NCBI GenBank assembly: GCA_021295755.1
Contig: JAGWBT010000003.1
Span: 43,129 to 107,128, forward strand
Length of the DNA: 64,000 bases
Reading direction: 5' to 3'
Source of the DNA: Candidatus Poribacteria bacterium
GTDB taxonomy: Bacteria > Poribacteria > WGA-4E > PCPOR2b
Shown: positions 7,181 to 50,278 of the stretch, piece after piece
Position numbering within the stretch: position 1 is the first letter of the stretch
Layout of the letters: every line of letters starts with the position of its first letter
Program-made: the position numbers and the translations under genes
The notes under the pieces: generated by a model
Database searches by the model: none
What the model was told of the DNA's origin: nothing
The model's input: only the letters and a program-made list of their open reading frames with translations

Positions 7181-7281
7181 CTGTAGGTCGATTTTCCAAA
7201 ATAGACCGCCTTTCGTAGTCATCCCGATACATCGGGATGATCATGGCATAGGAAAATGTCGAAATATGAATCTCGACCTAC
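7181..7281. repeat. MITE-like small element with terminal inverted repeats GTAGGTCGA...TCGACCTAC and an inner hairpin ATCCCGAT/ATCGGGAT; a shorter copy lies at 13741-13798
   Basis: The 5' about 30 nt and 3' about 25 nt are near-identical to 13741-13798. The terminal inverted repeats are exact reverse complements. Confidence 0.6.
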
Positions 7282-10631: not shown

Positions 10632-10743
10632 GGCAAACCTTGTGGTTGCCCTCATTCCTTTCGCTCCAGAGGAGCGATATGTCTATAGAAGGGTAATGGG
10701 ACCAATCCACGCGCTCCAGAGGAGCGCAATGTGTAAGCAAAGT
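10632..10743. repeat. REP-like palindromic repeat block: hairpin GGCAAACC-TTGT-GGTTGCC plus two tandem units CGCTCC-AGA-GGAGCG followed by ATGTCTATAGA or ATGTGTAAG
   Basis: A paralogous block lies at 13917-14003, where the stems differ by compensatory changes. Confidence 0.6.
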
Positions 10744-10809
10744 ATGTCCAACACCAATACCCCAAATTCCCAACAGGACGACAAATATCTAATATATGGA
10801 GGAATAATA

Positions 10810-13740: not shown

Positions 13741-13840
13741 CTGTAGGTCGATTTTCCAAAATCGACGTGCTGTGTCGAGATATGAATCTTGACCTACAGG
13801 TTGCAACCAATCCCCGTAGGTCGGGCATCTTGCCCGACCT
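13741..13840. repeat. Short copy of the MITE-like element (CTGTAGGTCGA...TCAAGACCTACAG) followed by a related hairpin AGGTCGGGC-ATCTT-GCCCGACCT
   Basis: Sequence identity of its ends with 7181-7281. The adjacent perfect 9-bp hairpin shares the GTAGGTCG core. Confidence 0.55.
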
Positions 13841-13916: not shown

Positions 13917-14003
13917 TTTTTCGCCCCAGAGGGGCGACATGTCTATAGGGTAGCGGTATACCTAATCTTCGCGCTCCAGAGGAGTGCTATGTGTATAGTA
14001 GAG
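13917..14003. repeat. Second REP-like block: CGCCCC-AGA-GGGGCG then ACATGTCTATAGGG, and CGCTCC-AGA-GGAGTG then CTATGTGTATAG
   Basis: Paralogous to 10660-10743. The stem change CGCTCC/GGAGCG to CGCCCC/GGGGCG preserves base pairing. Confidence 0.6.
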
Positions 14004-14061
14004 TTTTCATTGTGATAACAAGGCAGATAATTTGCCAACAACATCAAGGAGGTAACAAAAC

Positions 14062-14880: not shown

Positions 14881-14989
14881 GACCTTTTAACTAGTCCTAC
14901 ACCACCCGATCCAATTGTAATGCGCGATATTTTTGATTTTTTCCCCGTTCAATTCAACCACGGATCAATGAACGAATGAACCTTTGACC

Positions 14990-15022
14990 GTTTACGCATT
15001 ACGTTTCATGTTTTACGCTTCA
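14990..15022. repeat. TTTACGC / ACGTTT direct-repeat cluster (CCGTTTACGCATTACGTTTCATGTTTTACGCTTCA)
   Basis: The same ACGTTTTACGCATCACGTTT-like motif recurs at 25704-25730, 61427-61455 and 45764-45790, and on the reverse strand near 42137-42160. Confidence 0.5.
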
Positions 15023-15066
15023 TTCTAGCACTGCCTTCCCGCCCTCATACACCTTGCTAAGAGAGG

Positions 15067-15129
15067 TCACGGATATCCGTGAATCCCTTTATTTTATGCC
15101 TTGATCTCTCTTTTGTGTCATGCTATAAT
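15067..15129 (+). promoter_or_regulatory. Candidate promoter of the bc-complex operon: perfect 16-bp palindrome TCACGGATATCCGTGA, then TTGATC, a 17-bp spacer and an extended -10 TGcTATAAT
   Basis: The palindrome centre lies about 50 bp upstream of the -10 start. The identical palindrome, at the same spacing from a TGcTATcAT -10, is found at 24718-24781. Confidence 0.5.
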
Positions 15130-15237: not shown

Positions 15238-15726
15238 GTGCTATCACGACGTTCATTTTTTAAGTTTCTGGGCTGGGGAAATTTCCTCGCTGCTACCGGC
15301 CTTGCCTTTGGTCCCGGATTGATCCGATTCTTATACCCGCGAGTCCTTTTTGAACCATCCTCGGTCTTTAAGGCTGGATTTCCCGGCGAATATCCTCCCG
15401 GAACGGTTAGCGAGAAGTTCAAGAAAAATCCGTATCGCGTCTGGATTGTTCGAAAAGAAGATGGCGAGTTTTACGCATTGTTAGCTATTTGCACCCACCT
15501 CGGTTGCACCCCTCGATGGTTTGCATCTGAGAATAAATTTAAGTGCCCTTGTCACGGCAGCGGATTTGACCGTGAAGGGATGCACTTTGAAGGCCCTGCA
15601 CCGCGTCCCCTTGAGCGCGTGCAAATTACGCTGGCGGAGGATGGACAACTGCTGATTGATAAGTCCGTAAAGTTTCTGGAAGAGCGGGGCGATTGGGGAA
15701 AACCAGGGTCTTCTTTAAGGGTTTAA
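15238..15726 (+). CDS. Rieske [2Fe-2S] protein of a cytochrome bc-type complex, Tat-exported
   Basis: Rieske boxes CTHLGC and CPCHGSGF, and a twin-arginine motif SRRSFFKFL right after the GTG at 15238 (GAGGTGA RBS). The longer listed ORF from 15079 would cover the promoter elements. Confidence 0.8.
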   Translation: MLSRRSFFKFLGWGNFLAATGLAFGPGLIRFLYPRVLFEPSSVFKAGFPGEYPPGTVSEKFKKNPYRVWIVRKEDGEFYALLAICTHLGCTPRWFASENKFKCPCHGSGFDREGMHFEGPAPRPLERVQITLAEDGQLLIDKSVKFLEERGDWGKPGSSLRV

Positions 15727-15733
15727 TAAAGTA

Positions 15734-15758
15734 GTAGGCATACTCTGTATGCCGTAAC
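15734..15758. repeat. 3'-UTR hairpin element GTAGGCATAC-TCT-GTATGCCGTAAC immediately after the Rieske stop codon
   Basis: 7-bp stem and 3-nt loop. Near-identical elements follow the stop codons at 20806 and 22620. Confidence 0.55.
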
Positions 15759-15941
15759 CGATTTATAGTAGATATACTCTGTCTTGATCTCCGCGACGAG
15801 GCTTTGAAGGTTCGACTGCGTAAATTCTAATTCTACTAAATTATACCCTTTTGGTGCGGTCTTAACAAGAAAACCAAATTGAGCAAGAAAGGAGCTATAC
15901 AGCCTTGGTGATGCTAACGCGAAACAGGCTGAGTTGTTATT

Positions 15942-16715
15942 ATGAATGAAAGACGTAATGGATTAAAAGAGAAAATCACAAATAACCAGATCTGGCAGTC
16001 GATGTTTCGCCACGGCTACGAAAAAACAGGAAGACGATATACCCTCCAAGTCCTCCAAAATGTCTGGCTTCATCTGCATCCTCCCCGCGTTACCCGCCAC
16101 GCGATTAACTTCCGATTTACATGGTGCATGGGCGGGATTACCTTTCTGATGTTTCTTGTCACCGCCGTTACTGGTGTGTTATTGATGTTCTACTATCGTC
16201 CCACCGCAGAATACGCATTCCGTGATATCCAGTATCTTGAATTTGACATCCCATTCGGGATGCTCCTGCGTAATATGCACCGTTGGGCAGCCCACGGCAT
16301 GGTCATCGCAGTGATGCTCCACATGTTCCGCGTTTTCCTGACCGGGTCCTATAAAAAACCTCGCGAATTTAACTGGGGGGTCGGTGTCATCCTACTGCTT
16401 GTCACCTTTTTCCTCAGCTTTACCGGCTATCTGCTGCCGTGGGATCAGCTCGCATTTTGGGCGGTCACCGTCGGAACGAACATGGCGCGAGCAACACCCG
16501 TCTTAGGACATGAAGGTCCCTTCGCCCCGCAGGATATTGTTACTCAATCGAATGATGTCCGCTTCGCCCTCCTTGGGGGAACAATTGTTGGACCTTCAAC
16601 GCTATTACGATTTTACATCCTTCATTGTGTCGCCGTGCCGCTTTTGGCAAGCGTGTTGATGGCTCTACATTTCTGGCGTGTCCGTAAGGATGGCGGTATT
16701 TCTGGACCCCTGTAG
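15942..16715 (+). CDS. Cytochrome b, N-terminal (b6-like) half of a split cytochrome b
   Basis: Heme-ligand regions LLRNMHRWAAHGMVIAVMLHMFR and YLLPWDQLAFWA. It is 257 aa and is followed by a separate C-terminal-half gene. Confidence 0.85.
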   Translation: MNERRNGLKEKITNNQIWQSMFRHGYEKTGRRYTLQVLQNVWLHLHPPRVTRHAINFRFTWCMGGITFLMFLVTAVTGVLLMFYYRPTAEYAFRDIQYLEFDIPFGMLLRNMHRWAAHGMVIAVMLHMFRVFLTGSYKKPREFNWGVGVILLLVTFFLSFTGYLLPWDQLAFWAVTVGTNMARATPVLGHEGPFAPQDIVTQSNDVRFALLGGTIVGPSTLLRFYILHCVAVPLLASVLMALHFWRVRKDGGISGPL

Positions 16716-16756
16716 AACTGAATTCATTTCAATACTTATTTTCAGTGAGGTGATAT

Positions 16757-17623
16757 ATGGAGCATTTTCTTTTATTGGTTACGAAGCCGGATAACGTTCC
16801 AATTGTTGCAATTGTGTTGTTGTTACCTTTCTTCACTTGGCTTGCATTCAGCCAAGGGCGCAGAAATGACCGAGCCGGCACACCCGCAGAAGCAGCACTT
16901 AACGATAAAGTCTACTGCTGGCCCTACCTTTGCCGCAACGAGTTTCTCTGTGCGATTATTGTAATGCTCGTGCTGGGGATATGGTCTATTACCATTGATG
17001 CCCCCCTCGAAGAGCCCAGCGATCCAACAAAAACCCCGAATCCATCTAAGGCCCCATGGTATTTCCTCGCGCTACAGGAAATGCTAGTTTACTTTGATCC
17101 GTGGATTGCAGGTGTTGTCTTGCCAGGATTGATTATCGCCGGTTTAGTCGCCATTCCCTTTATAGATATCAATCCCAAAGGAAAAGGCTACTATACCCTA
17201 AAAGAGCGTCCGTTTGCACTTATTATCTTCTGTTTCGGCTTTTTCGTGTTATGGATCGTGTTGATGGTCGTCGGCACCTTCCTGAGGGGACCCGGTTGGA
17301 ACTTTTTCGCCCCATGGAAAGAGTGGGATCCGCACAAAATTGTGCCGTTAACCAACGTCAACCTCTCTTACCTATTTGGCATCCGGAACGAACAGCCCGC
17401 CGGTATCTTCGGGATGTGTGTTGTCGTCGGCTATTTTGCTCTGGGTCCCATCTATTATTATCTAAAAAGAGGAACGAGTAAGTTCCTTCAAGAGTTGGGA
17501 TTAGTGCGATACATCGTGGTTTCATTCCTGTTTTTAACGATGATGTCTTTGCCTATCAAGATGATTCTTCGGTGGACATTGAATATCAAGTATATTTGGG
17601 TTTCTCCGTGGTTCAATATCTAG
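16757..17623 (+). CDS. Cytochrome b C-terminal half (subunit-IV/PetD-like), extended
   Basis: Multi-TM protein with PEWY-region-like PWYFLALQEMLVYF. It sits immediately downstream of the b6-like gene. Confidence 0.75.
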   Translation: MEHFLLLVTKPDNVPIVAIVLLLPFFTWLAFSQGRRNDRAGTPAEAALNDKVYCWPYLCRNEFLCAIIVMLVLGIWSITIDAPLEEPSDPTKTPNPSKAPWYFLALQEMLVYFDPWIAGVVLPGLIIAGLVAIPFIDINPKGKGYYTLKERPFALIIFCFGFFVLWIVLMVVGTFLRGPGWNFFAPWKEWDPHKIVPLTNVNLSYLFGIRNEQPAGIFGMCVVVGYFALGPIYYYLKRGTSKFLQELGLVRYIVVSFLFLTMMSLPIKMILRWTLNIKYIWVSPWFNI

Positions 17624-17680
17624 GGCGTATTGGACAATGTGTAATTCGTCCATTCAAATAGTAAGGAGTCAATAGGAATC

Positions 17681-20600
17681 GTGAGGAGCAATAAAGAAAT
17701 TCAGGTTGAGGAAAAATCTTACGCAGCACTGTTTTTTATCCTTTCCGGTTTGTTGGGATTCGTTACGCTGTGGGGTTTCTATAACGAGACTATCACTAGA
17801 CGACCATGGAAGGAAATTCAGCGGCAATTTTACGAATACGAATATCAAAAAACCAAGATCGATTTGGAAAAGGCAAAACAGGATCTGCCTGAGATTGAAG
17901 CACCTCAAGAAATTGACCCTAAACAGGAGAGCAGCCTAAAAGGTGCGATTGCGAAGTTGCAGATAAAACTGGACGAAGCCCTGCAGGAACGCAAATTTGA
18001 TCAGAGTGAATCGGATGCAATCAATTATAAATATCAGCATGCACTGCACCACGGGGAACAAGAGAAAGCCGAAAAATGGAAAAAGAAATTAGACGAATTT
18101 GAAAGTCGGATTGAGGGACCATTGACGGACGCTGTACTGGAGGCGGAGCGGAATCTTGCCGATGCTTATAAGGATCTCGCTGAGCTTTATGATACCAATG
18201 GACACGTTGAGGCAGCGTTAAGTGAATATCTCCTTGTTCGAAAATATAATGCAGCAGACTCGACAGCTTCGGCGAAGATTGATGAACTTCAGGCGAAAAT
18301 TGAGGATGCGAAAGCGGATAAAGCCAAATACGCTGAGGTAGACAGACTTGAGGAGAAGCTCCATTCCGTTGGCGGTATTAAGCGCACTTTCATCGGCACG
18401 TTGGCGGAAAGCCCCTTCACAAAGACGCGCACGGTTGTGCAATACTACATTGAAGATTTTGACTATACGGCAGATCGATGTGCAACCTGTCACTTCGCTT
18501 CGGACAAAGCTGGATATGACAAGTTCGCCAAAGAGCAGTTTGAGGAAATCGAGGGGGATGGCGAAAGCCTGTTGACACTCCAATTAAAACATCCCTACAT
18601 TAATACAGATAGCGAAACGGTGCTCATTGATGAGGAAGATGCCGAAGAGGGTAGCTATGAGTTAAGCGAAGACGGCAAGTTGACCTTCACCGATCCGGAT
18701 GTTTTTGCCGATCTCGTCGAAATCGCGTATGAAACCGGATATGATCCCGTGCTTCGGACGCACCCCCACCGGGATGTGCTGCTCGGTAAACACCCCGGTG
18801 AAAGATTTGGATGCACCCCCTGCCACGGCGGACAGGGACAAGGTCTGACTCAAATAGCCGCACACGCCCTAGACCATAAGAAGGAGTATTGGTTGACACC
18901 TGTCTTGGGGTTGGATGAACACACAGGTAAGGCTTCAGAAGAATTGCACGGCTACATGGAGTCTAATTGTCGGCGCTGCCATGATGGCGTGATGATGCTA
19001 GACGCTCCGAATCCAGAGACAGGGCAGCTCCAAGATTATTCACCGGTTCTCTCGAAGGGAATGGCACTCTTTGAGGATATCGGGTGTCATGGCTGTCATG
19101 CTGTTGAGGGATATTCCGTGTTAGCGGACCTCGACCAAGTTGGTCCATCGCTTGCTAAAGTCGGTAGTAAAGTCAATGGTGTTGACTGGTTGGAAGGGTG
19201 GATTAAGCAGCCCACCGCCTATCTACCAGAGACCAAGATGCCAGATTTCTTCCCCGTCGAAAAGTTGACCCAAGCGGTTTATCTCAAAAATGGAAATAAG
19301 CACTACGGCGTCGTCACCAAGACCGACACCGGCATTATTCTCCAAAAAGACGATGGCACGAAATATCCTTATCCTGACACCGCTGTTGAAAGGGTTGTTG
19401 ATGAAGTGAAATCAATTGCGGCATACTTGGCACAGATGAAAGACCCGGCGATAGATCAGGCCGATACCTCATACTCGACGGCATCCCGTGCGATTGCTGC
19501 CGGTGAACAGGTCGTTAAATCTGTTGGCTGCCTGTCATGTCATGCAGTTGATGGACTCGGAAGCGATTTCGCACCAAAATTGGATAATGTGGGCAGCAAA
19601 CTCACACCACAATTTCTCCGTCAATGGATCAGCGATCCAAAATCTTACGACCCCGACACCGCTATGCCCAGCCTCCGTTTGACCAAAACTGAGGTGAACA
19701 ATGCGGTTGCCTATCTGATGTCGTTGCAAGAGACGGCAATCTCTCCTATTGCCGGCAACGAAAATCCGCACGCAGCGGTTGATCCGATGGAAGGCGAAAA
19801 GCTAGTTCGCACCTACGGTTGCTTCGGTTGCCATAACATCCCCGGCTTCGAGAATGAGTCGAAGGTCGGTGCAGATCTCGGCGAATTTGGCGCCAAGACC
19901 GTTGAGGAACTAGACTTTGGAGATACGACGGATATCGAACACAGTTGGCACGGTTGGACAATCGGCAAGGTGACCAATCCAAGACGCTATCAAACGCGTC
20001 GCATTGTATCCCGGATGCCCGTCTTTAGTGAACACACCATCGGCGAGGAAGAGGCACGTGCCCTCGCTGTTCTGCTCAAGAGTTTCCAACCCGTAAAATA
20101 CCCTGTGAGCTACCTCCACCAACCGAGCGAAAAAACATGGCAGGTTGATGCCGGACGCCGTCTCGCCAAAAAATACAACTGTACCGGCTGCCATGAGATT
20201 GAAGGAAAAGGCGGCGATTTTGTCAATGTTGTTGCCGCTAATGAAGACCTAGACCTACTAAACGCCAAGCGCTTCGCCCCGCCTACTCTGCAAGCGCAAG
20301 GTGCTAAGGTTTATCCGGAGTGGTTGTTTGAGTTCCTGAAATCACCTACTCCTATCCGCTACGGGCTTGAAGTTCGGATGCCGACTTTCGGTTTAGCAGA
20401 CGAGGAAGCGACTGCGCTTGTCAAATACTTCTCTGCGCTTGACGATGAGGTTTTCCCGTATGAGACCATCGCATTACAACCGGCGTCGCGAGGGGAGCTC
20501 CGTGTCGGCAAACAGATCTTTGACGCGCTCCAGTGTATCTCCTGCCACCCGGAACAAGGCGAAGTTATACCACCGGGCAGCGATAAAACCGGACGCCCCG

Positions 20601-20806
20601 ACCTTGCATTAGCGAAGGGTCGTCTCAAAGCGGACTGGGTCATTGAATGGCTCAAGGATCCACAATCCTTCCAACCGGGGACTGCGATGCCGCAAGCTTG
20701 GCCCAAAATCGGCGGCGCATATCAACCTGTTGATGGGTTTGCAGTCGATGATGCCGAAGAGCAGATCCGGCTGGTGAGAGATTACCTCAACTCGCTGGGC
20801 GAGTAA
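17681..20806 (+). CDS. Membrane-anchored octaheme c-type cytochrome of the bc complex, with a long coiled-coil-like linker
   Basis: Eight CxxCH motifs: CATCH, CTPCH, CRRCH, CHGCH, CLSCH, CFGCH, CTGCH and CISCH. It has an N-terminal TM helix and a GTG start with an AGGAG RBS. Confidence 0.8.
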   Translation: MRSNKEIQVEEKSYAALFFILSGLLGFVTLWGFYNETITRRPWKEIQRQFYEYEYQKTKIDLEKAKQDLPEIEAPQEIDPKQESSLKGAIAKLQIKLDEALQERKFDQSESDAINYKYQHALHHGEQEKAEKWKKKLDEFESRIEGPLTDAVLEAERNLADAYKDLAELYDTNGHVEAALSEYLLVRKYNAADSTASAKIDELQAKIEDAKADKAKYAEVDRLEEKLHSVGGIKRTFIGTLAESPFTKTRTVVQYYIEDFDYTADRCATCHFASDKAGYDKFAKEQFEEIEGDGESLLTLQLKHPYINTDSETVLIDEEDAEEGSYELSEDGKLTFTDPDVFADLVEIAYETGYDPVLRTHPHRDVLLGKHPGERFGCTPCHGGQGQGLTQIAAHALDHKKEYWLTPVLGLDEHTGKASEELHGYMESNCRRCHDGVMMLDAPNPETGQLQDYSPVLSKGMALFEDIGCHGCHAVEGYSVLADLDQVGPSLAKVGSKVNGVDWLEGWIKQPTAYLPETKMPDFFPVEKLTQAVYLKNGNKHYGVVTKTDTGIILQKDDGTKYPYPDTAVERVVDEVKSIAAYLAQMKDPAIDQADTSYSTASRAIAAGEQVVKSVGCLSCHAVDGLGSDFAPKLDNVGSKLTPQFLRQWISDPKSYDPDTAMPSLRLTKTEVNNAVAYLMSLQETAISPIAGNENPHAAVDPMEGEKLVRTYGCFGCHNIPGFENESKVGADLGEFGAKTVEELDFGDTTDIEHSWHGWTIGKVTNPRRYQTRRIVSRMPVFSEHTIGEEEARALAVLLKSFQPVKYPVSYLHQPSEKTWQVDAGRRLAKKYNCTGCHEIEGKGGDFVNVVAANEDLDLLNAKRFAPPTLQAQGAKVYPEWLFEFLKSPTPIRYGLEVRMPTFGLADEEATALVKYFSALDDEVFPYETIALQPASRGELRVGKQIFDALQCISCHPEQGEVIPPGSDKTGRPDLALAKGRLKADWVIEWLKDPQSFQPGTAMPQAWPKIGGAYQPVDGFAVDDAEEQIRLVRDYLNSLGE

Positions 20807-20810
20807 TGTG

Positions 20811-20837
20811 GTCAGCATACTCCGTATGCCGTGACCT
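20811..20837. repeat. 3'-UTR hairpin element GGTCAGCATAC-TCC-GTATGCCGTGACC
   Basis: Same family as 15734-15758 and 22618-22643. It lies 5 nt after the stop codon. Confidence 0.55.
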
Positions 20838-20875
20838 CCGTGGTTCATGTGAAAAAAATGTGTGAAGCGATCCAA

Positions 20876-20908
20876 AGAAACCGAGCTTTTTCTTGAAAAC
20901 TCGGTTTC
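20876..20908 (+). terminator. Hairpin AGAAACCGAGCTTTT-TCTTG-AAAACTCGGTTTC
   Basis: A 12 to 13-bp near-perfect stem followed by T-rich sequence. An almost identical hairpin lies at 25609-25640. Confidence 0.5.
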
Positions 20909-20982
20909 TTTCCACGATTTCTTAACATAAGCGATGACGTGTATTCAATCCTTCCTATCGTGGTACTAAAAGGGGGCTACAA

Positions 20983-22620
20983 ATGCTTCAAGCCAATCCC
21001 TCCGTATCTTCCGAAGCCTCAACAGCAGGAAATAGTGGCCAACGTATCCTCATCGGCATCGTTATCGCCATCATCGTTGGGCTTATTGTCGGTGGTTGGA
21101 TACCAAACTTCGCCGCAAAGACAACCCTGCTCGGCGACATATTCTTGAATGCCCTAAAAATGATTGTCGTCCCGCTGGTCATGTTTTCAATGATTGTTGG
21201 CATTACCGGCTTAGGGGACATTCGCAACCTCGGCCCAATAGGTGGACGCACTGTCCTCTATTACATGGCGACCACTGGGATTTCCGTGCTCATCGGTATC
21301 ATTTTGGTCAACATCACCCAACCGGGGAAAGGAATTTCTCGCGGCGCAGATTATCCAGAGTATACCTACACCGTTGGTGGCGAAAACAATCGCACTGTTA
21401 CGTTCACCAACGGCACCTGGGAGAACACACGTTTTGACGACAGGTATGTCCTGATTTTATCCGATCAAGGGGTGCAAGGTGCGATTCAGTCAATGACTGA
21501 AAACTCCGCTACAGTAAAGTTGTGGGAACCCACCCAAGGCGGTGAGGAGGTCTATATTGAGGCGGAGGATGGCACACGCCTGCCTTTTCGGCGGGTCGGA
21601 GGGCAGCTCGTTTCCGATGAACCGGAGCTGCAACCCGGAGGAAAAGGCGTAAAAATTGACCTACCTATCGCCGGGGCAGTTCGCGGCAAAGAAGAGCGAA
21701 ACATCGGCAACATCTTGTCGGAAGTCCTGATTGGAAACGAAGAAACCGGAAAAGAGGGCTTGATTCCGCGAAACCTGTTCAACGCGATGGTACGGACTGA
21801 CATCCTCCCGTTGATCTTTTTCTCGTTGCTGATCGGCAGCGCATTTTCCATCTTGGGTGAACGTGGACAGAATGCCATTAATTTTATTTCGGTGCTGAAC
21901 GATGGTGTCATGCGTATTGTGCACTGGATCATGATTTTCGCGCCAATCGGTATCTTCGGATTAGTTGCAGGTCGTATTGGACGCGCCGGTGGATTCACCA
22001 AATTTCTGCCTGAACTGCTTGCAGTTGGGAAATATAGTTTCACAGTCCTATTTGGACTCGCTATACACGCCGTTGTTGTGTTGCCGCTAATCCTCCTGCT
22101 AATTGGTAGACGGAATCCGTTGACCTACGTAAAGGGGATGGGAGCAGCGCTGCTAAACGCTTTCTCCACAGCATCAAGCTCAGCGACACTGCCGTTGACA
22201 ATGGAAGGCACTGAGAAGAAAAATGGCATATCCAATCGGACTTCAAGTTTCGTCTTACCACTTGGTGCAACAATTAATATGGACGGCACTGCCCTCTACG
22301 AAGCCGTTGCTGCGATGTTTATCGCACAGGTCTACGGAATAACCCTCGGTCCTGTGGAGCAGATTGTTATCTTTCTGACCGCGACGATTGCCGCTATCGG
22401 GGCTGCAGGTATCCCTGAGGCGGGGCTTGTGACAATGGTGATTGTCTTAAAAGCCGTTGGATTGCCGATTGAAGGTATTGGATTGATCCTGACTATCGAT
22501 TGGTTCCTTGACCGATGCCGGACAACCATCAACGTCTGGGGCGATAGTGTGGGTGCTGGTGTAATTGAGACGCTTGAATCGAGGACTGCTCCAGAACAGG
22601 AGGCAGACTCCTTAAGGTAG
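20983..22620 (+). CDS. Dicarboxylate/amino acid:cation symporter (DAACS, GltP-like) with an insertion of about 140 aa in a hydrophilic loop
   Basis: DAACS TM-core signatures (MIVVPLVMFSMIVGITGLGD; ATINMDGTALYEAVAAMFIAQ) plus a long insert from GADYPEYTYTV to LIGNEE. Confidence 0.75.
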   Translation: MLQANPSVSSEASTAGNSGQRILIGIVIAIIVGLIVGGWIPNFAAKTTLLGDIFLNALKMIVVPLVMFSMIVGITGLGDIRNLGPIGGRTVLYYMATTGISVLIGIILVNITQPGKGISRGADYPEYTYTVGGENNRTVTFTNGTWENTRFDDRYVLILSDQGVQGAIQSMTENSATVKLWEPTQGGEEVYIEAEDGTRLPFRRVGGQLVSDEPELQPGGKGVKIDLPIAGAVRGKEERNIGNILSEVLIGNEETGKEGLIPRNLFNAMVRTDILPLIFFSLLIGSAFSILGERGQNAINFISVLNDGVMRIVHWIMIFAPIGIFGLVAGRIGRAGGFTKFLPELLAVGKYSFTVLFGLAIHAVVVLPLILLLIGRRNPLTYVKGMGAALLNAFSTASSSATLPLTMEGTEKKNGISNRTSSFVLPLGATINMDGTALYEAVAAMFIAQVYGITLGPVEQIVIFLTATIAAIGAAGIPEAGLVTMVIVLKAVGLPIEGIGLILTIDWFLDRCRTTINVWGDSVGAGVIETLESRTAPEQEADSLR

Positions 22621-22643
22621 TAGGCAGACTCCGTATGCCGTAA
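22618..22643. repeat. 3'-UTR hairpin element GTAGTAGGCAGAC-TCC-GTATGCCGTAAC overlapping the symporter stop codon
   Basis: Same family as 15734 and 20811. There is one stem mismatch. Confidence 0.5.
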
Positions 22644-22729
22644 CTGTGTAGCTCCAGAACAAGGGTCAGATTCCCCCGCACTGTCGAGTTAAGTGGAATC
22701 ATGCGAATAACAAAGGTGGTATCGTTCAA

Positions 22730-23104
22730 ATGATTCGACATCTTCTCATCATCGTTGGGATATTTGCCGCTAGTATGAGTTGGCTGATTTGGCTCTGTCG
22801 GGCGGTAGACCCCAGTACACGATACGGCTCCGAAGTCGAGTACAATTATGCTAGATATTGTGCCGGTTGTCATGGTGCGAACGGTGAAGGCAATGGACGG
22901 ATTGGACGGTTCAAAAAGCTAGAACCTGCAGATCTGACGACAACCGAATTTTGGGAGGGTCGTACCGACGAACAACTTATCCACAGTATTGATGCCGGCA
23001 AGGATAATATGCCGGCATTTTTTTACTACCTAACCGATGAAGAACAGTGGGAACTGTTCGAGTTTATCAAAGAGACTTTTCGACCAACGCCGACGCATGA
23101 TTAG
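22730..23104 (+). CDS. Monoheme class-I c-type cytochrome, membrane-anchored
   Basis: CAGCHG heme motif and an N-terminal hydrophobic helix; 124 aa. Confidence 0.75.
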   Translation: MIRHLLIIVGIFAASMSWLIWLCRAVDPSTRYGSEVEYNYARYCAGCHGANGEGNGRIGRFKKLEPADLTTTEFWEGRTDEQLIHSIDAGKDNMPAFFYYLTDEEQWELFEFIKETFRPTPTHD

Positions 23105-24717: not shown

Positions 24718-24781
24718 TCACGGATATCCGTGACATCTTCTTTTTTAACCCTTGATTCCCCTTTTCGTATGCTGCTATCAT
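24718..24781 (+). promoter_or_regulatory. Candidate promoter of the cupredoxin/bd-like/cytochrome-c operon: palindrome TCACGGATATCCGTGA, then TTGATT, an 18-bp spacer and TGcTATcAT
   Basis: Identical 16-bp palindrome and near-identical geometry to 15067-15129. Confidence 0.5.
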
Positions 24782-24845: not shown

Positions 24846-25595
24846 ATGAAAACTGCAATAACTCTGGCCGCACTCAGCTTTATGCTCATCGCAAGCCTGA
24901 CGTATGCCGGCACAATCACCGGAACAGTTATGTATGATGGGGAGGCCCCAGCACGCCCAGCGATGCAAGCGACCAAAGACCAGCACTGTGTTGATTCGCT
25001 AAAAAATGGCAAATCTGAAGCCCTTGTAGTCTCTAAAGGCAAAGGAATTAAAAACGTCGTTGTCTACTTGCGGGCACGAGGCGCGAAGCCAACAATTCCC
25101 ACCAAAAATCCAGTCATGGATCAGGTCAACTGCATGTACTATCCGCATGTCCTCGTTGTGACCGCAGGCACCACAATAGATGTGACCTCCAGCGACCCGG
25201 TTGCCCATAACGTCCATTCTCATGCAACGAAGAACGAGGCACCGAATTGGCAAATACCGGGTCCCGGTAAAAAGTTGCCTCTGAAACTAGAAAAACGTGA
25301 AGCTATTAAATTCACCTGCGACATCCACAATTGGATGACGGGATATATCTTTGTTACGGACAATGACTATTACGCTGTGACCGGCTATAAGGACAAAGAC
25401 GGCAAATGGATCAGTTCCGATGCCTACGAAGGTTCGAGCGATACGGGTGCCTACATGATCAAAGATGTTCCCGCCGGCAAATACCGGGCTATAGCATGGC
25501 ACGAGGAGCTTGGAGAGACCAAAGCTCAGGTTGTCGAAGTTGCAGACGGAGACGTTGAGATTAACTTTACCAGTGCTGATTTCAAGAAGAAGTAA
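24846..25595 (+). CDS. Secreted cupredoxin-like (type-1 copper, plastocyanin/amicyanin-like) protein
   Basis: Signal peptide; copper-ligand pattern H (VAHNVHSH) ... C-x2-H-x2-M (TCDIHNWM). It is paralogous to 31850-32629. Confidence 0.6.
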   Translation: MKTAITLAALSFMLIASLTYAGTITGTVMYDGEAPARPAMQATKDQHCVDSLKNGKSEALVVSKGKGIKNVVVYLRARGAKPTIPTKNPVMDQVNCMYYPHVLVVTAGTTIDVTSSDPVAHNVHSHATKNEAPNWQIPGPGKKLPLKLEKREAIKFTCDIHNWMTGYIFVTDNDYYAVTGYKDKDGKWISSDAYEGSSDTGAYMIKDVPAGKYRAIAWHEELGETKAQVVEVADGDVEINFTSADFKKK

Positions 25596-25608
25596 CACTG
25601 CCGACGCA

Positions 25609-25640
25609 GAAACCGAGTTTTTTCTTCAAAACTCGGTTTC
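25609..25640 (+). terminator. Hairpin AGAAACCGAGTTTT-TTCTTC-AAAACTCGGTTTC
   Basis: 13-bp perfect stem, 14 nt after the stop codon; near-identical to 20876-20908. Confidence 0.5.
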
Positions 25641-25703
25641 TCTGAACGTTTTCCACTTTTTTTGACATGAAACCCGTGGGTCAGATACCAATGAACAAAT
25701 TGT

Positions 25704-25730
25704 GTTTACGTTTTACGCATCACGTTTTAA
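25704..25730. repeat. GTTTACGTTTTACGCATCACGTTTTAAGC direct-repeat motif upstream of the bd-like gene
   Basis: Same motif family as 14990-15022 and 61427-61455. Confidence 0.5.
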
Positions 25731-25800
25731 GCCCTTGGTGTTTGGCATTTGCTTTTGGCATGAGCCTCGATATTAAGTCTGGAGTGACAGAGAAAAACCA

Positions 25801-27624
25801 ATGTATCTCACCAAACATCTCAATATGAGCCAGTCCAAAAACAGGCTATATTTTCTTCTCGCTCTGCTTGCTATGTATCTGCTGTTGACGGTTGCGACTG
25901 TCTTCGCTCAAGATGCGACTGACACAGAATACCGCCCCTTCCCGGGGATCGGCAGCCGTAACGCCGCATGGATCGCTGCCCAGCTGCATCTGTTGTTCGG
26001 TTCCTTCATCTTGGGTGTTCCGATGTTTGCGGTTGTCATTGAGTTTGTCGGGCTGAAAACGAAGGACAAACGGTATGACAAGATGGCGCAGGAGTTCATC
26101 AAACTGTGTATGGGAGCGTTCTCAACGACCGCGTTGATGGGCGGGGTACTTGTTTTTATCCTCATCTGGTGTTACCCGAAAGTGATGAACAAACTGTCAG
26201 GAATCTTCGGTCCTTCGATGATTTTCTACGTCATCCTGTTTTTTGGGGAGACCTTTACGCTCTATCTCTATTCTTACGGGTGGGATCGGATGCAGGGCAG
26301 GGTGTCGAAAATGTGGCACCTATTTCTCGGCGTGCTCCTGAACGTGTTCGGTACAGCGATTATGTTCGTCTCTAACGCTTGGCTGACATACCAGACAAGC
26401 CCAGCGATTATGGGCCCCAAACCCGACCACGAGGCAATTCCGCTTCATGATGAGTCGGGCGCATTCATCGGTACGCTGTGGCAGGCAATCAATAACTATA
26501 CGTGGATGCCTGTCAATATCCACCGTCTCATTGGGAATATAGCTTTCGGTGGTGCAATCGTTGGTGCCTATGCCGCCTTTCGGTTCCTTGCTGCCAAAAC
26601 GCAGGAAGACAGGGCGCATTACGACTGGATGGGATATACGGGCAATTTTATCGCACTGTGCGGATTGATTCCATTGCCATTCGCCGGATATTGGTTGGGA
26701 CGGGAAATCTATATGTTCAACCAAACGATGGGCATCAACATGATGGGAAGCCTCTTTTCTTGGCTGTTTATTATTCAAGCGGTGATGATTGGAGTGCTGT
26801 TCATCGGAGCGAATTACTATCTCTGGTCTGGCATGACCCGCATCGCAGGCGGCGAGGTATACGCTCGTTTTCGTCCCTACATGATCGCTATCATTGTTCT
26901 ATCTGTCGCAGTCTGGATGACGCCGCGCACACTCATTGTGACGCCTACGGAGTCGGCTGCAATGGGTGGGCCAAATCACCCGCTCGTTGGACTTTTCGGC
27001 TTGATGACAGCGAAGAACACGGTTGTCAATCTCATTATCTTGACCACCTTTCTCAGCTTTCTGTTTTACCGTCGATCCGGTAAAACACCGACAGTGAGTT
27101 GGCGCAAAGCGGGCAATATCGTCATCGCAGCGATTTTTGGACTGGCTGTCGCAGCGATTGTTACAATTGGGATCGTAGGGTTCAAGGTTAACACTGACTT
27201 CCGCGTCAATGTCCTAACGCCGATACAAGTGATGGTCGCGTTAGCTGTCATGGTTTTGGTAACGGTGATTGACTTGATTATGTATCGCAAAGCGATGCGT
27301 TCAAGCGAAATCAGTTGGGGGCAGATGACGGACCGGTCACAATATGTGCTGATTTTACTCGCCATTACCTTTACCTCATTGATGGGATTGATGGGCTACG
27401 CACGGTCGGGGCTTCGAGAGGCGTGGCATATTTTCGGTGTAATGCCCGACAAGTCGCCGGATGCACACACCCCGCTGCTTGCGGATGCCGTTAACATGAT
27501 TGCCGTTATTATAGTGATTTTCTTCGCTTTGGTAGGCTTTATTTTCTGGCTCGGTTTGTGGGGCGATAAGAAAAAAGAGGGACAGCCACCCGTTAAAGCA
27601 GAAGCCTCCGCAGGAGATGATTAA
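25801..27624 (+). CDS. Cytochrome bd oxidase subunit-I (CydA)-like polytopic membrane protein, enlarged (607 aa), with no adjacent cydB ('bd-like')
   Basis: By eye, it has a CydA-like helix 1 with a His (AAQLHLLFGSFILGVPMF) and a helix-5-like segment PVNIHRLIGNIAFGGAIVGAYAAFRFL. It has about 12 to 14 hydrophobic helices and a signal-like N-terminus. This is pattern recognition only. Confidence 0.5.
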   Translation: MYLTKHLNMSQSKNRLYFLLALLAMYLLLTVATVFAQDATDTEYRPFPGIGSRNAAWIAAQLHLLFGSFILGVPMFAVVIEFVGLKTKDKRYDKMAQEFIKLCMGAFSTTALMGGVLVFILIWCYPKVMNKLSGIFGPSMIFYVILFFGETFTLYLYSYGWDRMQGRVSKMWHLFLGVLLNVFGTAIMFVSNAWLTYQTSPAIMGPKPDHEAIPLHDESGAFIGTLWQAINNYTWMPVNIHRLIGNIAFGGAIVGAYAAFRFLAAKTQEDRAHYDWMGYTGNFIALCGLIPLPFAGYWLGREIYMFNQTMGINMMGSLFSWLFIIQAVMIGVLFIGANYYLWSGMTRIAGGEVYARFRPYMIAIIVLSVAVWMTPRTLIVTPTESAAMGGPNHPLVGLFGLMTAKNTVVNLIILTTFLSFLFYRRSGKTPTVSWRKAGNIVIAAIFGLAVAAIVTIGIVGFKVNTDFRVNVLTPIQVMVALAVMVLVTVIDLIMYRKAMRSSEISWGQMTDRSQYVLILLAITFTSLMGLMGYARSGLREAWHIFGVMPDKSPDAHTPLLADAVNMIAVIIVIFFALVGFIFWLGLWGDKKKEGQPPVKAEASAGDD

Positions 27625-27651
27625 CAATCAAACACAATCAGGACGAGAGCG

Positions 27652-29154
27652 ATGCAAAGAAGACTAATTAGAATTATCTGCCTAATTTTAATGGTTGTGA
27701 GTTTTATCGCCTATATCGCGAAAGCGCCGGCTTTCCCGATCGCTTCGGAAAACCTACTGCCGTGGTCTGCATGGTTTTTTATCTTTGCTTTGGCGAATAT
27801 CATACTCTGGCAGAGCGTGGTCAAACTCATGTCATTTGCGTTGATGGTCATCTGGTTCTATGCGTTTGCGGCCAGCATTGTTCCAGAAACATCGACTGCG
27901 ACGTTTGACCCTAACGCCGTAGACCGGACGCCGGATGCGTTTATTGAGGTTGGGGAGATAATCTTTAACGGGAAAGGAAAATGCAACACCTGCCATACAC
28001 TTGATCCGTCTGCGCCAAAAAGTCGCTGTCCCGATTTAACGGATATTGGCACTCGCGCTGCAACACGCCAACCGGGAATGACTGCGAAGGAGTATCTCAT
28101 CGAATCCACCTATGAACCCCACAAATTCCTTGTTCCCGGCTACAGCAACATTATGCCGCCCGTCTGGAAACCACCAATCAGTCTAACTGAGTTGGAAATC
28201 GAAACCGTCATTGCCTTCCTCCAGAGTCAGGGTGGAGAAGTGGATGTAACAAAGTTTGAGCCGCCCGTTGATATCGGAAGTGCGGAAGCCATAGCCGAGG
28301 AATTGCCACCCCTCCTCACAGGCGACGTAGAACGTGGTAAAAAGGTTTTTGTAGAGGGCGCGAAGTGTATCGCGTGTCACGCTGTCGCTGGTGTCGAGCA
28401 ACCTACCGGTCAAACGCTTGACGAAGGTGTTGAAGTTGTCGCTGCACCCGAATTGACGGATATCGCTGGGTTAAACAGTCTCCGGTATATTGAGGAATCC
28501 GTCCTATTACCGAATGCTCAAATTGTGAGCGGATACGGTTCCGTTACGGTGAAAACCGGCGGTGCCACAATTCAGGGAACGCTTGTTACGCAAGATAATG
28601 AGCAGATCAGTGTGCGTGTTAAGGACGTAGCCGGTAACGAAGAAGAGCACACCATTCTATTGAGCGAGCTCGATCCAGAGCCGATTGAAGAGTTGACAGA
28701 TCTGACAGGGAAAGGATACTTCTGGATTCAAGTAACGCTTGCCGACACGGGAGCCACCGTAAGTGGCGATCTCGTAGAAGAGGACGACGAAAACATTATA
28801 CTTCAGGCGGGTGGAGAGACGCAAACGGTTTCTAAGTCGAACGTGAAGGTTCAGGCGACATTGATTGACTTTGATGAGAATGTTATCGTTGGGGAATTGG
28901 TATCGGAAAATGAGGACGAAGTCATCTTAAACGTTGATGGTGAGGAGCAGATCATTGATACATTCGATATCGACGAAGGTCCGAACTACAGCCGTGCTTT
29001 CGGTAAGCGATTGGTTGTAACTTCCCCGATGCCGAATAACTTTCCGTTGTTGCTATCGGTTTCCGACATGAGCGATCTACTCGCCTATCTAGCAAGCTTA
29101 ACGGGTGCGACAGACGCGACAGCGGCTGAGGGAGCAGAGGCAACCGCCGAATAA
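27652..29154 (+). CDS. Diheme c-type cytochrome with an N-terminal membrane domain and three C-terminal beta-rich repeats of about 35 aa
   Basis: CNTCH and CIACH motifs. Internal repeats: TGATIQGTLVTQDNEQISVRVKD, TGATVSGDLVEEDDENIILQAGG and VIVGELVSENEDEVILNVDG. Confidence 0.7.
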   Translation: MQRRLIRIICLILMVVSFIAYIAKAPAFPIASENLLPWSAWFFIFALANIILWQSVVKLMSFALMVIWFYAFAASIVPETSTATFDPNAVDRTPDAFIEVGEIIFNGKGKCNTCHTLDPSAPKSRCPDLTDIGTRAATRQPGMTAKEYLIESTYEPHKFLVPGYSNIMPPVWKPPISLTELEIETVIAFLQSQGGEVDVTKFEPPVDIGSAEAIAEELPPLLTGDVERGKKVFVEGAKCIACHAVAGVEQPTGQTLDEGVEVVAAPELTDIAGLNSLRYIEESVLLPNAQIVSGYGSVTVKTGGATIQGTLVTQDNEQISVRVKDVAGNEEEHTILLSELDPEPIEELTDLTGKGYFWIQVTLADTGATVSGDLVEEDDENIILQAGGETQTVSKSNVKVQATLIDFDENVIVGELVSENEDEVILNVDGEEQIIDTFDIDEGPNYSRAFGKRLVVTSPMPNNFPLLLSVSDMSDLLAYLASLTGATDATAAEGAEATAE

Positions 29155-29170
29155 GGAGAGTTAAACCGCC

Positions 29171-29950
29171 ATGCAAAGATTATCCCTTTTCACAAAATGC
29201 CTAATCATATTTGTTGTGCTTTGGCTCTTTTTAAGATTCTTCATCGGTGGTGTATGGTCTGTGCCGTTACCCGCTAGCGTGATCTCAATGTATTTGGGGC
29301 TTATTCTATTGGCGATTCTGGTTCACGTGTCCGTCGAAGATGACAGGTTTCGAGAATTTCTCCGTCCTGTCAAAGAGACCTTGGCTGATGAGGATAGGGG
29401 GACAAGGCGTACTGTGTTGTTTGTCCTTATTCCTTTGGTTATGCTTGGTTTAAGTTTTTCTAGGTTGTCAACAAAGGCAGATCCACCAGCCGCGCTGCGC
29501 ACTGCCCATCCGGCGCCACCTGATGAACTGACCTACCGCGACAAGGTTATCGGTCCCACGCAACAGGTGGAAAACCCCTTCCGGCACCTTGAAAAAGATG
29601 ACAAGGAAGCATTTAAGGCTCATGTAGAGAACGGACGGCGGGTCTATTATCAAAACTGTTTCTACTGCCACGGCGACGATCTTGATGGCGAAGGACATTT
29701 CGCTCACGGTTTCAACCCACCGCCTGCAAACTTTCAGGACCCTGGGATTATTCCGAACTTCCAGGAATCTTTCTTCTTCTGGCGTATTAGTAAGGGAGGC
29801 CCCGGTCTGCCGCCAGCTGCAACCCCGTGGGATTCTGCCATGCCGGTCTGGGAGGATCACCTGACAGAGGAGGAGATTTGGGATGTGATTCTCTTCCTGT
29901 CTGAATACACAGGGTATCGACCACGGACGTTTGGTGAAGCGGCGCATTAA
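29171..29950 (+). CDS. Membrane-anchored monoheme c-type cytochrome
   Basis: CFYCHG motif and two N-terminal hydrophobic helices. Confidence 0.7.
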   Translation: MQRLSLFTKCLIIFVVLWLFLRFFIGGVWSVPLPASVISMYLGLILLAILVHVSVEDDRFREFLRPVKETLADEDRGTRRTVLFVLIPLVMLGLSFSRLSTKADPPAALRTAHPAPPDELTYRDKVIGPTQQVENPFRHLEKDDKEAFKAHVENGRRVYYQNCFYCHGDDLDGEGHFAHGFNPPPANFQDPGIIPNFQESFFFWRISKGGPGLPPAATPWDSAMPVWEDHLTEEEIWDVILFLSEYTGYRPRTFGEAAH

Positions 29951-29972
29951 GATTGGAGCGGAAGAAAAAACA

Positions 29973-35081: not shown

Positions 35082-35105
35082 TGAAAAGAAAGGAGTCAAT
35101 ATAGA

Positions 35106-45713: not shown

Positions 45714-45811
45714 CGGACTGAAGGAAAATCACGATGAGAAAGTGATCCTCGAATTCTGAGAATACCTTTTACGTCTCACGTTCTAAATTATAATTGATAC
45801 CGGAGGATATA

Positions 45812-50239: not shown

Positions 50240-50278
50240 AATCACGCCTTGAATGTCAATTTAGATCGGAGTTTGCCA

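What the first reader, a model, noticed from the sequence alone, without database searches (positions are those of the whole stretch)
15067..15129. Perfect 16-bp palindrome TCACGGATATCCGTGA, shared at identical promoter geometry by two respiratory operons
The palindrome occurs exactly twice in 64 kb, at 15067-15082 and 24718-24733. In both places its centre is about 50 bp upstream of an extended -10 (TGcTATAAT or TGcTATcAT), with a TTGATC or TTGATT -35 in between at 17 to 18-bp spacing. One site precedes the Rieske/cytochrome b/octaheme operon and the other precedes the cupredoxin/bd-like/cytochrome c operon. This is the classic architecture of a class-I dimeric activator site centred at about -61. 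It suggests one regulator, for example a CRP/FNR-family redox sensor, co-controls both respiratory modules.
Basis: seen in the sequence. Interest (0 to 1): 0.7.

Follow-up and report, generated by a model that had tools for sequence, protein, structure and literature searches.

The report
Conserved respiratory-operon operator in Poribacteria
A perfect 16-base palindrome sits at the same place in front of two respiratory-chain operons of an uncultivated sponge symbiont (Candidatus Poribacteria) and is conserved letter for letter across many species, so it is almost certainly the docking site of one unidentified regulator that controls both operons: real, undescribed, but of an ordinary kind.

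Summary
TCACGGATATCCGTGA occurs exactly twice (15067-15082, 24718-24733). These are the only 16-bp perfect palindromes in the window. Each lies upstream of a predicted sigma70 promoter with an extended -10. One promoter drives the Rieske/cytochrome b/octahaem operon, the other the cupredoxin/bd-like operon.

The window is from Candidatus Poribacteria. All 34 are intergenic, and 32 precede orthologues of these two operons. The other 86 hits are nearly all inside coding sequence.

Over 43 distinct promoters the palindrome is invariant while the flanks are random. The -10 stays 41-43 nt downstream of it (one class may use a -10 a helical turn further). A T-tract at about -44 to -40 is also conserved.

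Loci chosen by protein homology alone carry the site at both promoters (4 lineages) or at neither (4 lineages).

Best reading: the site of an unidentified dimeric regulator centred at -61.5, probably a class-I-type activator. The regulator's family and the sign of regulation are unproven. The motif fits neither the CRP nor the FNR consensus, and no regulator gene is nearby. It is a new regulon of a known kind.

The parts
15067..15082 (.). Palindrome copy 1 (TCACGGATATCCGTGA), the proposed regulator-binding site. Its centre is at about -61.5 relative to the predicted start of the Rieske operon transcript.
   Evidence: Exact match. Orthologous sites are conserved 16/16 upstream of Rieske genes in many Poribacteria.
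15092..15096 (+). Conserved T-tract (TTTTA), 10-14 nt after the palindrome, at about -44 to -40. Proposed alpha-CTD/UP-like contact or bend.
   Evidence: The three T positions at +10 to +12 carry 1.6-2.0 bits and the two A positions at +13 and +14 about 1.0-1.1 bits over 43 distinct promoters. TTT at +10 to +12 is present in 32/34 Poribacteria hits, 3/86 other genomes and 0/13 viral contigs.
15101..15106 (+). -35-like hexamer TTGATC of promoter P1.
   Evidence: Consensus scan.
15121..15129 (+). Extended -10 TGcTATAAT of promoter P1.
   Evidence: Consensus scan, 10/12 matches with TG. The -10 lies at +41 to +43 after the palindrome in classes A, B, D and E.
15238..23104 (+). Operon 1: Rieske protein, cytochrome b (N- and C-terminal parts), 1041-aa octahaem cytochrome c, SDF-family symporter, monohaem cytochrome c.
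   Evidence: Pfam. Eight CxxCH motifs. The same gene order occurs in related loci.
24718..24733 (.). Palindrome copy 2, the proposed regulator-binding site. Its centre is at about -62.5 relative to the predicted start of the cupredoxin/bd-like operon transcript.
   Evidence: Exact match. Orthologous sites lie upstream of cupredoxin-like genes in many Poribacteria.
24741..24748 (+). Conserved T-tract (TTTTTTAA) after palindrome 2.
24752..24757 (+). -35-like hexamer TTGATT of promoter P2.
   Evidence: Consensus scan.
24773..24781 (+). Extended -10 TGcTATCAT of promoter P2.
   Evidence: Consensus scan.
24846..31715 (+). Operon 2 (at least): cupredoxin-like protein, cytochrome bd-like subunit I, three c-type cytochrome proteins (the last with an EB_dh/DOMON-type domain). 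Genes on the same strand continue to the aa3-type oxidase genes (34600-36953), but a strong hairpin at 25608-25653 may limit read-through.
   Evidence: Pfam. Type-1 copper ligand pattern in alignment A1. Hairpin fold.

Best explanation
The palindrome is the binding site of one still unidentified homodimeric transcription factor of Candidatus Poribacteria. The factor sits at about -61.5 on two sigma70-type promoters with extended -10 elements and couples expression of the Rieske/cytochrome b/octahaem operon to that of the cupredoxin/bd-like oxidase operon.

The most likely mode is class-I-type activation. The dimer would sit one helical face upstream of RNA polymerase and hold the alpha C-terminal domain on the conserved T-tract at about -44 to -40, next to the -35 element.

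Shown here:
- exact sequence conservation;
- fixed spacing to the predicted -10;
- exclusively intergenic, promoter-linked location;
- joint presence or absence at the two promoters.

Inferred:
- that a protein binds;
- that the start site lies about 7 nt after the -10;
- that the effect is activation;
- that the signal concerns respiration (oxygen, redox or cofactor supply).

My sub-estimates are about 0.85-0.9 for a shared regulator site and about 0.5-0.55 for an activating effect given that. The confidence given (0.6) is for the statement as a whole, weighted towards the first part.
For: (1) Chance is excluded. These are the only two 16-bp palindromes in the window and they are identical.

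The expectation is about 0.0014 per 6-Mb genome. All 34 are intergenic. The 86 other hits are almost all inside long ORFs, and their number fits the roughly 139 chance hits expected in 596 Gb.

(3) Of the 34 sites, 32 precede a Rieske gene or a cupredoxin-like gene. One precedes an F-type ATP synthase operon (L018). One lies about 730 nt upstream of a CopD/radical-SAM cluster with no convincing ORF in between (L009).

(4) Over 43 distinct promoters, almost every palindrome position carries 2.0 bits (the outermost base 1.6), while upstream flanks carry about 0.1. The only other conserved features are TTT(A)A at +10 to +14 and the promoter hexamers. The -10 lies at +41 to +43 in four promoter classes. 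In the fifth class it lies either at +42 or one helical turn further, at +51/52.

(5) Loci chosen only by homology of the cupredoxin protein carry the site at both promoters (L130, L155, L136, L153) or at neither (L128, L129, L131, L154), never at one alone. Natural variants with 1 and 3 mismatches keep the core ACGGATATCCG and the geometry.

(6) Within a genome the two promoters share little beyond the palindrome. Upstream identity is 17-35% and downstream identity 39-51% (one exception at 80%). The site is therefore constrained, not copied along with a cassette.

(7) Promoters of the palindrome-less clade keep the same core promoter, so the site is an added regulatory input.

(8) Class C Rieske promoters have poor -35 elements (3-4 of 6), as activator-dependent promoters do.

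(9) The geometry matches the canonical class I site at -61.5 (PMC10853779) and alpha-CTD binding to the minor groove near -44 (PMC1874639).
Against: - No regulator was identified. No DNA-binding regulator gene (apart from an ECF sigma factor) lies in the window or in the 10 kb upstream. That stretch holds only an orphan histidine kinase and the divergent ECF sigma factor.
- Transcription starts are predicted, not measured.
- Several of the promoters, including both in the window, have a perfect or near-perfect extended -10 and a 4/6 -35. They might be strong on their own, which fits repression or modulation as well as activation.
- The 43 promoters were mostly found by searching for the exact 16-mer, which inflates apparent invariance. 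The homology-selected sample is small (8 lineages) and phylogenetically non-independent.
Confidence: 0.6

Rival explanations
1. The palindrome is the operator of a repressor or dual-function regulator. The protein would bind upstream of the -35 and lower transcription, for example by occupying or mis-positioning the alpha-CTD/UP-like tract, by over-stabilising RNA polymerase at strong promoters, or by cooperating with a second site.
For: Both window promoters and most class A, B and E promoters have an extended -10 (TGnTATAAT or TGnTATCAT) plus a 4/6 -35. They may not need an activator. Lineages without the palindrome keep a similar core promoter and presumably still express these essential complexes.
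Against: Simple repressors usually overlap the -35, the -10 or the start site, whereas this site is always upstream of the -35. Strict conservation of distance and helical face to the -10, with the adjacent T-tract, is the hallmark of a contact with RNA polymerase. Class C promoters have weak -35 elements. No second operator was found within 20-kb loci at up to 3 mismatches.
Confidence: 0.22
2. It is an RNA or DNA hairpin: an intrinsic terminator of the upstream gene, or a stabilising stem-loop, and not a protein-binding site.
For: The consensus scan flags the P2 copy as weakly terminator-like, with a 6-bp stem, a 4-nt loop and a T-rich tail. The RNA folds at about -9 to -12 kcal/mol, z about -3.
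Against: The P1 copy is not flagged. The T-run begins 8-10 nt after the stem, not directly after it. The stem is only 6 bp, whereas this genome's real hairpins have 12-14 bp stems at about -18 kcal/mol. The sequence, loop included, is invariant with no compensatory changes across lineages whose flanks are randomised, which is the opposite of what a structure-only element shows. The upstream genes differ in identity and distance (360 nt at P1).
Confidence: 0.03
3. It is part of a copied or mobile promoter cassette, or a REP/MITE-like dispersed repeat. The two copies would then be alike by common descent and not because a shared regulator constrains them.
For: In the window the similarity runs on for 48 nt at 77% (family D7). 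In one lineage (L153) the two promoters are 80% identical downstream of the site. The genome carries other short dispersed intergenic repeats (families D1, D2, D3 and D6).
Against: In nine genomes the flanks of the two copies are near random upstream (17-35% identity) and only 39-51% identical downstream, while the 16-mer is identical. Only 1-2 copies per genome were seen, always at these promoters. There are no terminal repeats or target duplications. The copies persist at orthologous positions across lineages whose first-gene proteins are only 57% identical.
Confidence: 0.03

Closest known systems
Class I CRP(CAP)-dependent promoters (lac type, site centred at -61.5)
   Same: A two-fold symmetric site for a dimer is centred at about -61.5, on the same helical face as RNA polymerase. 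An A/T tract lies between the site and the -35, where alpha-CTD docks (near -44). One promoter class may sit one helical turn further, at -71.5, which is also a permitted class I position.
   Different: The sequence is not a CRP or FNR box. The half-sites TCACG/CGTGA are everted relative to TGTGA/TCACA. The core promoters often carry a full extended -10. The regulator, the effector and the start sites are unknown.
NarL/FixJ-family response-regulator sites (NarL 7-2-7; ComA box TTGCGG-N4-CCGCAA, recalled from memory)
   Same: These are 16-bp palindromes read by a dimer of LuxR-type HTH domains. Ours can be read as 7-2-7 (TCACGGA-TA-TCCGTGA) or as 6-4-6 with a CGG-N4-CCG core like the ComA box. 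Such regulators control respiratory genes and activate from sites upstream of the -35 (PMC10853779).
   Different: The heptamer does not match TACYYMT. No response-regulator gene lies near the orphan histidine kinase at the window's start. The family assignment is only a lead.
Rex operator (TTGTGAA-N4-TTCACAA) and the Rex regulon of respiratory, ATP synthase and haem genes (recalled from memory)
   Same: A 16-18-bp palindrome containing TTCAC/GTGAA lies upstream of respiratory operons. In single lineages it also lies upstream of an ATP synthase operon and near a putative haem-related cluster.
   Different: The half-site order is reversed (TTCACG...CGTGAA versus TGTGAA...TTCACA). The position is upstream of the -35 and does not overlap the promoter. 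Rex is a repressor.
Streptomyces palindrome TTCACGGATATCCGTGAA next to an IclR-family regulator gene
   Same: The identical 18-bp palindrome is conserved in about 12 Streptomyces species. It lies between the stop of an IclR-type regulator gene and the start of a CoA-transferase gene, so it is probably that regulator's operator.
   Different: The phylum and the target genes are unrelated. One such coincidence is expected among roughly 139 chance hits. No IclR gene was seen near the Poribacteria sites.

Membership tests
Class I activator-dependent sigma70 promoter | Dimer site centred near -61.5 (or -71.5, -82.5, -92.5), on the same helical face as RNA polymerase. | tested here: met
   The -10 hexamer lies at +41 to +43 after the palindrome in classes A, B, D and E. 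This puts the centre at -60.5 to -62.5 if the -10 spans -12 to -7. Class C gives -61.5 or about -71.5. This is relative to predicted, not measured, promoters.
Class I activator-dependent sigma70 promoter | An alpha-CTD DNA contact (A/T-rich minor groove) between the activator site and the -35. | tested here: inconclusive
   A conserved TTT(A)A lies at +10 to +14, about -44 to -40 (the T positions at 1.6-2.0 bits, the A positions at about 1.0-1.1), and is present in 32/34 sites. This is consistent with alpha-CTD docking, but binding was not shown.
Class I activator-dependent sigma70 promoter | Transcription depends on the bound activator and on alpha-CTD. | not testable with these tools
   This needs reporter or in vitro transcription assays. 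The organism is uncultivated.
CRP/FNR-family binding site | Match to TGTGA-N6-TCACA (CRP) or TTGAT-N4-ATCAA (FNR) type consensus. | tested here: not met
   The site is TCACG-N6-CGTGA, with half-sites everted relative to CRP. There is no TTGAT/ATCAA pair. The TTGAT in the -35 has no partner.
CRP/FNR-family binding site | A CRP/FNR-family regulator encoded in the genome, ideally linked or co-occurring with the site. | tested here: inconclusive
   None was found among the ORFs of 100 aa or more in the 64-kb window, nor in the 10 kb upstream. The rest of the genome could not be searched.
NarL/FixJ 7-2-7 site | A 16-bp inverted repeat of heptamers matching TACYYMT, plus a cognate response regulator. 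| tested here: not met
   The 7-2-7 form is present, but the heptamer TCACGGA does not match TACYYMT. Only an orphan histidine kinase with a divergent ECF sigma factor lies nearby, and no response regulator.
Intrinsic terminator | A G+C-rich stem directly followed by a U-run, with the structure conserved through compensatory change. | tested here: not met
   P1 is not flagged and P2 only weakly. The stem is 6 bp, at about -9 kcal/mol. The sequence is invariant with no covariation.
Dispersed repeat (REP/MITE-like) | Many copies per genome at varied, non-orthologous positions. | tested here: not met
The 20-kb homology-selected loci hold only the two promoter sites. A full-genome count was not possible.

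The most novel reading that the evidence does not exclude
The element is a composite, Poribacteria-specific activator module (palindrome, 9 nt, then TTTAA) read by a regulator family, or a regulator/alpha-CTD docking mode, not yet described. It would act as the master switch of the symbiont's aerobic respiratory chain, and in some lineages of ATP synthase, in response to the oxygen swings of sponge tissue. It would have been lost as a unit, sites and factor together, in one large Poribacteria clade.
Probability: 0.25. Interest if true: 0.55.

Novelty: new member of a known kind. Interest (0 to 1): 0.4.

Why it matters
Poribacteria are abundant, uncultivated sponge symbionts, and nothing is known about how they regulate genes. 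This gives a concrete, conserved cis-element linking their two unusual respiratory modules, a Rieske/cytochrome b complex with an octahaem subunit and a cupredoxin/bd-like oxidase cluster.

The clean split into lineages with the site and lineages without it should allow the regulator to be named by phyletic profiling of closed MAG chromosomes. The prediction of co-regulation can be tested with sponge metatranscriptomes taken under oxic and anoxic (pumping and non-pumping) conditions.

The principle itself, one dimeric regulator at about -61.5 on several promoters, is textbook. The value is therefore organism-specific and not conceptual.

Tried and rejected
1. Chance was rejected.
2. A generic dispersed repeat was rejected. 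Non-Poribacteria hits are coding and at chance level, and Poribacteria hits are only at promoters.
3. A terminator or hairpin was rejected on structure and on the lack of covariation.
4. A known RNA family or tRNA was ruled out; none is in the window.
5. A recent promoter duplication was rejected on flank identities, except possibly in L153.
6. A regulator gene in cis was sought and not found. Pfam was run on all ORFs of 100 aa or more in the window, on the 10 kb upstream, and on the region upstream of the Rieske promoter in L136.
7. ATP synthase as a general regulon member was tested. The site is present in one lineage (L018) and absent, even at up to 4 mismatches, from four other Poribacteria atp promoters.
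8. Additional weaker sites in the window were sought. The only matches with up to 4 mismatches lie in coding sequence.
9. A viral-contig scan gave 13 hits, none with the T-tract signature, so chance level.
10. The literature holds no paper containing the motif, and the Poribacteria papers found do not address regulation.
11. The metagenome scan by protein pattern gave only 7 loci, fewer than hoped.
12. The Streptomyces IclR lead could not be carried over to Poribacteria.

Full report
**Observation**

TCACGGATATCCGTGA occurs at 15067-15082 and 24718-24733 and nowhere else in the window, even with up to 3 mismatches. These are the only two perfect 16-bp palindromes in the 64 kb. About one arbitrary 16-bp palindrome is expected by chance, but the expectation for a second copy of the same one is 1.5e-5.

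A consensus scan finds one sigma70-type promoter downstream of each copy. The first is TTGATC-17 nt-TATAAT with an upstream TG at 15101-15129. The second is TTGATT-18 nt-TATCAT with TG at 24752-24781.

The first promoter precedes a Rieske protein, a split cytochrome b, a 1041-aa protein with eight CxxCH motifs, a symporter and a monohaem cytochrome c. The second precedes a cupredoxin-like protein, a cytochrome bd-like subunit and several c-type cytochromes. The aa3-type oxidase genes follow on the same strand.

**Source organism**

The cupredoxin-like protein is 100% identical to an NCBI protein of Candidatus Poribacteria, and identical loci occur on ENA metagenome contigs. The rest of the window is a respiratory island:
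- haem A synthesis genes, COX3/COX4 and SCO1;
- succinate dehydrogenase and fumarase;
- a cluster of Usp, PCP_red and radical-SAM proteins.

No DNA-binding regulator is present. The 10 kb upstream of the window holds only an orphan histidine kinase and a divergent ECF sigma factor.

**Comparative evidence from exact matches**

I scanned one genome per bacterial and archaeal species for the exact 16-mer. Of these, 34 come from 29 Poribacteria genomes and 86 from everything else. About 139 chance hits are expected in 596 Gb, against about 0.0014 per 6-Mb genome.

The non-Poribacteria hits lie almost without exception inside long open reading frames. All 34 Poribacteria hits are intergenic.

Once oriented by the downstream promoter, the 34 sites divide as follows:
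- 17 precede a Rieske gene;
- 15 precede a cupredoxin-like gene followed by the bd-like gene;
- one precedes an F-type ATP synthase operon (L018);
- one (L009) lies about 730 nt upstream of a CopD-like/radical-SAM cluster, with no convincing ORF in between.

In five genomes both operons gave exact hits 8-16 kb apart. In two more, the second operon carries a one-mismatch copy (ACACGGATATCCGTGA).

**Anatomy**

I compared 43 distinct promoters: the window, the scan hits and the homology-selected loci. Almost every palindrome position carries 2.0 bits (the outermost base 1.6), while the 40 nt upstream carry about 0.1 bit.

Downstream, the only strongly conserved feature besides the promoter hexamers is a T-tract at +10 to +14 after the palindrome. 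The three T positions carry 1.6-2.0 bits and the two A positions about 1.0-1.1. TTT at +10 to +12 is present in 32 of 34 Poribacteria hits, 3 of 86 other genomes and 0 of 13 viral contigs.

The -10 hexamer, usually preceded by TG, lies at +41 to +43 in four promoter classes whose spacer sequences are otherwise unrelated. In the fifth class (class C Rieske promoters) it is either TATATT at +42 or TGnTATACT at +51/52, one helical turn further.

If the -10 spans -12 to -7, the geometry is:
- palindrome centre at -61.5 (window P2: -62.5; class C: -61.5 or about -71.5);
- T-tract at about -44 to -40;
- -35-like hexamer directly after the T-tract.

This is the geometry of class I activation: a dimer at -61.5 contacting alpha-CTD (PMC10853779), with alpha-CTD in the minor groove near -44 (PMC1874639). 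From memory, in the CAP-alphaCTD-DNA structure alpha-CTD sits about 19 bp from the centre of the CAP site. Here the centre of TTTAA is about 19-20 bp from the palindrome centre.

**Unbiased sample**

The set above was found with the exact motif, so I also fetched loci by homology of the cupredoxin protein alone.

Among lineages where both promoters are covered, four have the site at both:
- L130 and L155: exact at both promoters;
- L136: exact, plus a one-mismatch copy;
- L153: exact, plus CAACGGATATCCGCGA at the same geometry.

Four have it at neither, with no match at up to 3 mismatches anywhere in 20 kb: L128, L129, L131/L132 and L154. No lineage has only one site.

The lineages without the palindrome keep a recognisably related core promoter. 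The palindrome is therefore an added regulatory input that is gained or lost at both operons together, as expected if its regulator is gained or lost.

The natural variants keep the core ACGGATATCCG, which shows ordinary binding-site degeneracy.

**Regulon extent**

Four other Poribacteria atp promoters, chosen by AtpB homology, lack the site even at up to 4 mismatches. ATP synthase is therefore a lineage-specific addition and not a core target.

**Rivals**

- Hairpin or terminator. The stem is only 6 bp (about -9 kcal/mol), and the T-run starts 8-10 nt after it. The P1 copy is not flagged as a terminator. This genome's real hairpins have 12-14 bp stems at about -18 kcal/mol. The sequence is invariant, with no compensatory change.
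- Copied cassette or dispersed repeat. Within nine genomes the two promoters are 17-35% identical upstream of the palindrome and 39-51% downstream, with one exception of 80% in L153. Only 1-2 copies per genome were seen.
- Known RNA. There are no Rfam or tRNA matches.
- Repressor or dual regulator. This remains a serious rival. Many of these promoters have a full extended -10 and could be strong unaided. The weak -35 elements of class C, and the strict phasing to RNA polymerase, favour activation but do not prove it.

**Regulator identity**

The motif matches neither the CRP nor the FNR consensus. The half-sites are everted relative to TGTGA/TCACA.

Formally it is a 7-2-7 or 6-4-6 palindrome with a CGG-N4-CCG core. 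This resembles sites of NarL/FixJ-type response regulators (NarL 7-2-7; the ComA box from memory), but the heptamer does not match NarL's and no response regulator is nearby.

The same 18-bp palindrome lies next to an IclR-family regulator gene in about 12 Streptomyces species. This is a lead at most.

**Novelty and score**

No paper in the library contains the motif, and the Poribacteria papers retrieved do not deal with regulation. This is an undescribed regulon in an uncultivated phylum, but it is of a textbook kind, so I rate it a new member of a known kind with interest 0.4.

Limits:
- start sites are predicted, not measured;
- the genome scan was truncated;
- the regulator is unidentified;
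- the homology-selected sample is small and not phylogenetically independent.

Noticed in passing
window 14984-15030, 25705-25727, 45761-45783, 61428-61453 (all + strand); also L110, L113, L019: A second short dispersed element made of 7-bp direct repeats: TTTACGT TTTACGC ATCACGT TTCACG. It is always intergenic, in the orientation of the downstream gene, and recurs at orthologous intergenic positions in related Poribacteria (about 75 nt upstream of the palindrome, and between the cupredoxin and bd-like genes). There are 10 matches in 453 kb of Poribacteria DNA and 0 in 657 kb of other genomes. Its unit T(T/C)ACG resembles the palindrome half-site TCACG. Function unknown.
   Followed up: partly
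window 20876-20921 and 25608-25653; also L103: A repeated long hairpin (AGAAACCGAG...CTCGGTTTCT), with a 12-14 bp stem at about -18 kcal/mol and z of -4 to -5. It lies directly after the octahaem gene and after the cupredoxin gene. It could be a terminator or attenuator separating the cupredoxin gene from the bd-like gene, or a REP-like stabiliser.
   Followed up: partly
window 15727-15758, 20804-20835, 22613-22644: A 32-nt repeat that starts at the stop codon of three genes of the Rieske operon and contains the hairpin GGCATAC-TCTG-TATGCC (family D3).
   Followed up: no
window 10662-10744 and 13922-14004; 7181-7206 and 13741-13766: Paired REP-like hairpin repeats (CGCTCCAGAGGAGCG...) 50 nt apart at two intergenic sites, and a 26-nt repeat at 96% identity at two further sites (families D1 and D16).
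   Followed up: no
L092 3447-3462, and about 11 other Streptomyces/Kitasatospora loci (L014, L029, L060, L068, L070, L077, L093, L096, L118, L119, L124): The identical palindrome, extended to TTCACGGATATCCGTGAA, is conserved between the stop of an IclR-family regulator gene and the start of a CoA-transferase-like gene. It is probably that regulator's operator.
   Followed up: partly
L018 2548-2563 (OY282383.1): In one Poribacteria species the same palindrome, T-tract and spacing precede the F-type ATP synthase operon (AtpZ-like, AtpI, AtpB). Four other Poribacteria atp promoters lack it.
   Followed up: yes
L133 491-506 and about 150 nt downstream: An exact palindrome with its promoter is followed by a second, degenerate copy (TCACGGCTCCCCGTGT) with its own T-tract and a -10-like element. 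This looks like a tandem promoter duplication upstream of the cupredoxin gene.
   Followed up: no
window 20983-22620, 23518-24195, 40296-40712; L153 10801-11359; L130 8412-8618: The respiratory operons are interrupted by lineage-specific insertions. The window has an SDF symporter, a truncated periplasmic-binding-protein gene (225 aa against 374-407 aa in L155 and L130) and a PIN-domain gene between two COX3 paralogues. Other lineages carry toxin-antitoxin pairs inside the operon: PhdYeFM/YoeB (L153) and HicB-like (L130).
   Followed up: no
window 48296-54390: A cluster of proteins carrying the PCP_red domain, fused to Usp and rubredoxin-like domains or to a radical-SAM/SPASM enzyme, together with an Mrp/NUBPL-type ATPase and a CopD/HemJ-like membrane protein. 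It may be a cofactor (haem?) maturation module. In L009 the palindrome lies about 730 nt upstream of the homologous CopD-like/radical-SAM pair.
   Followed up: partly
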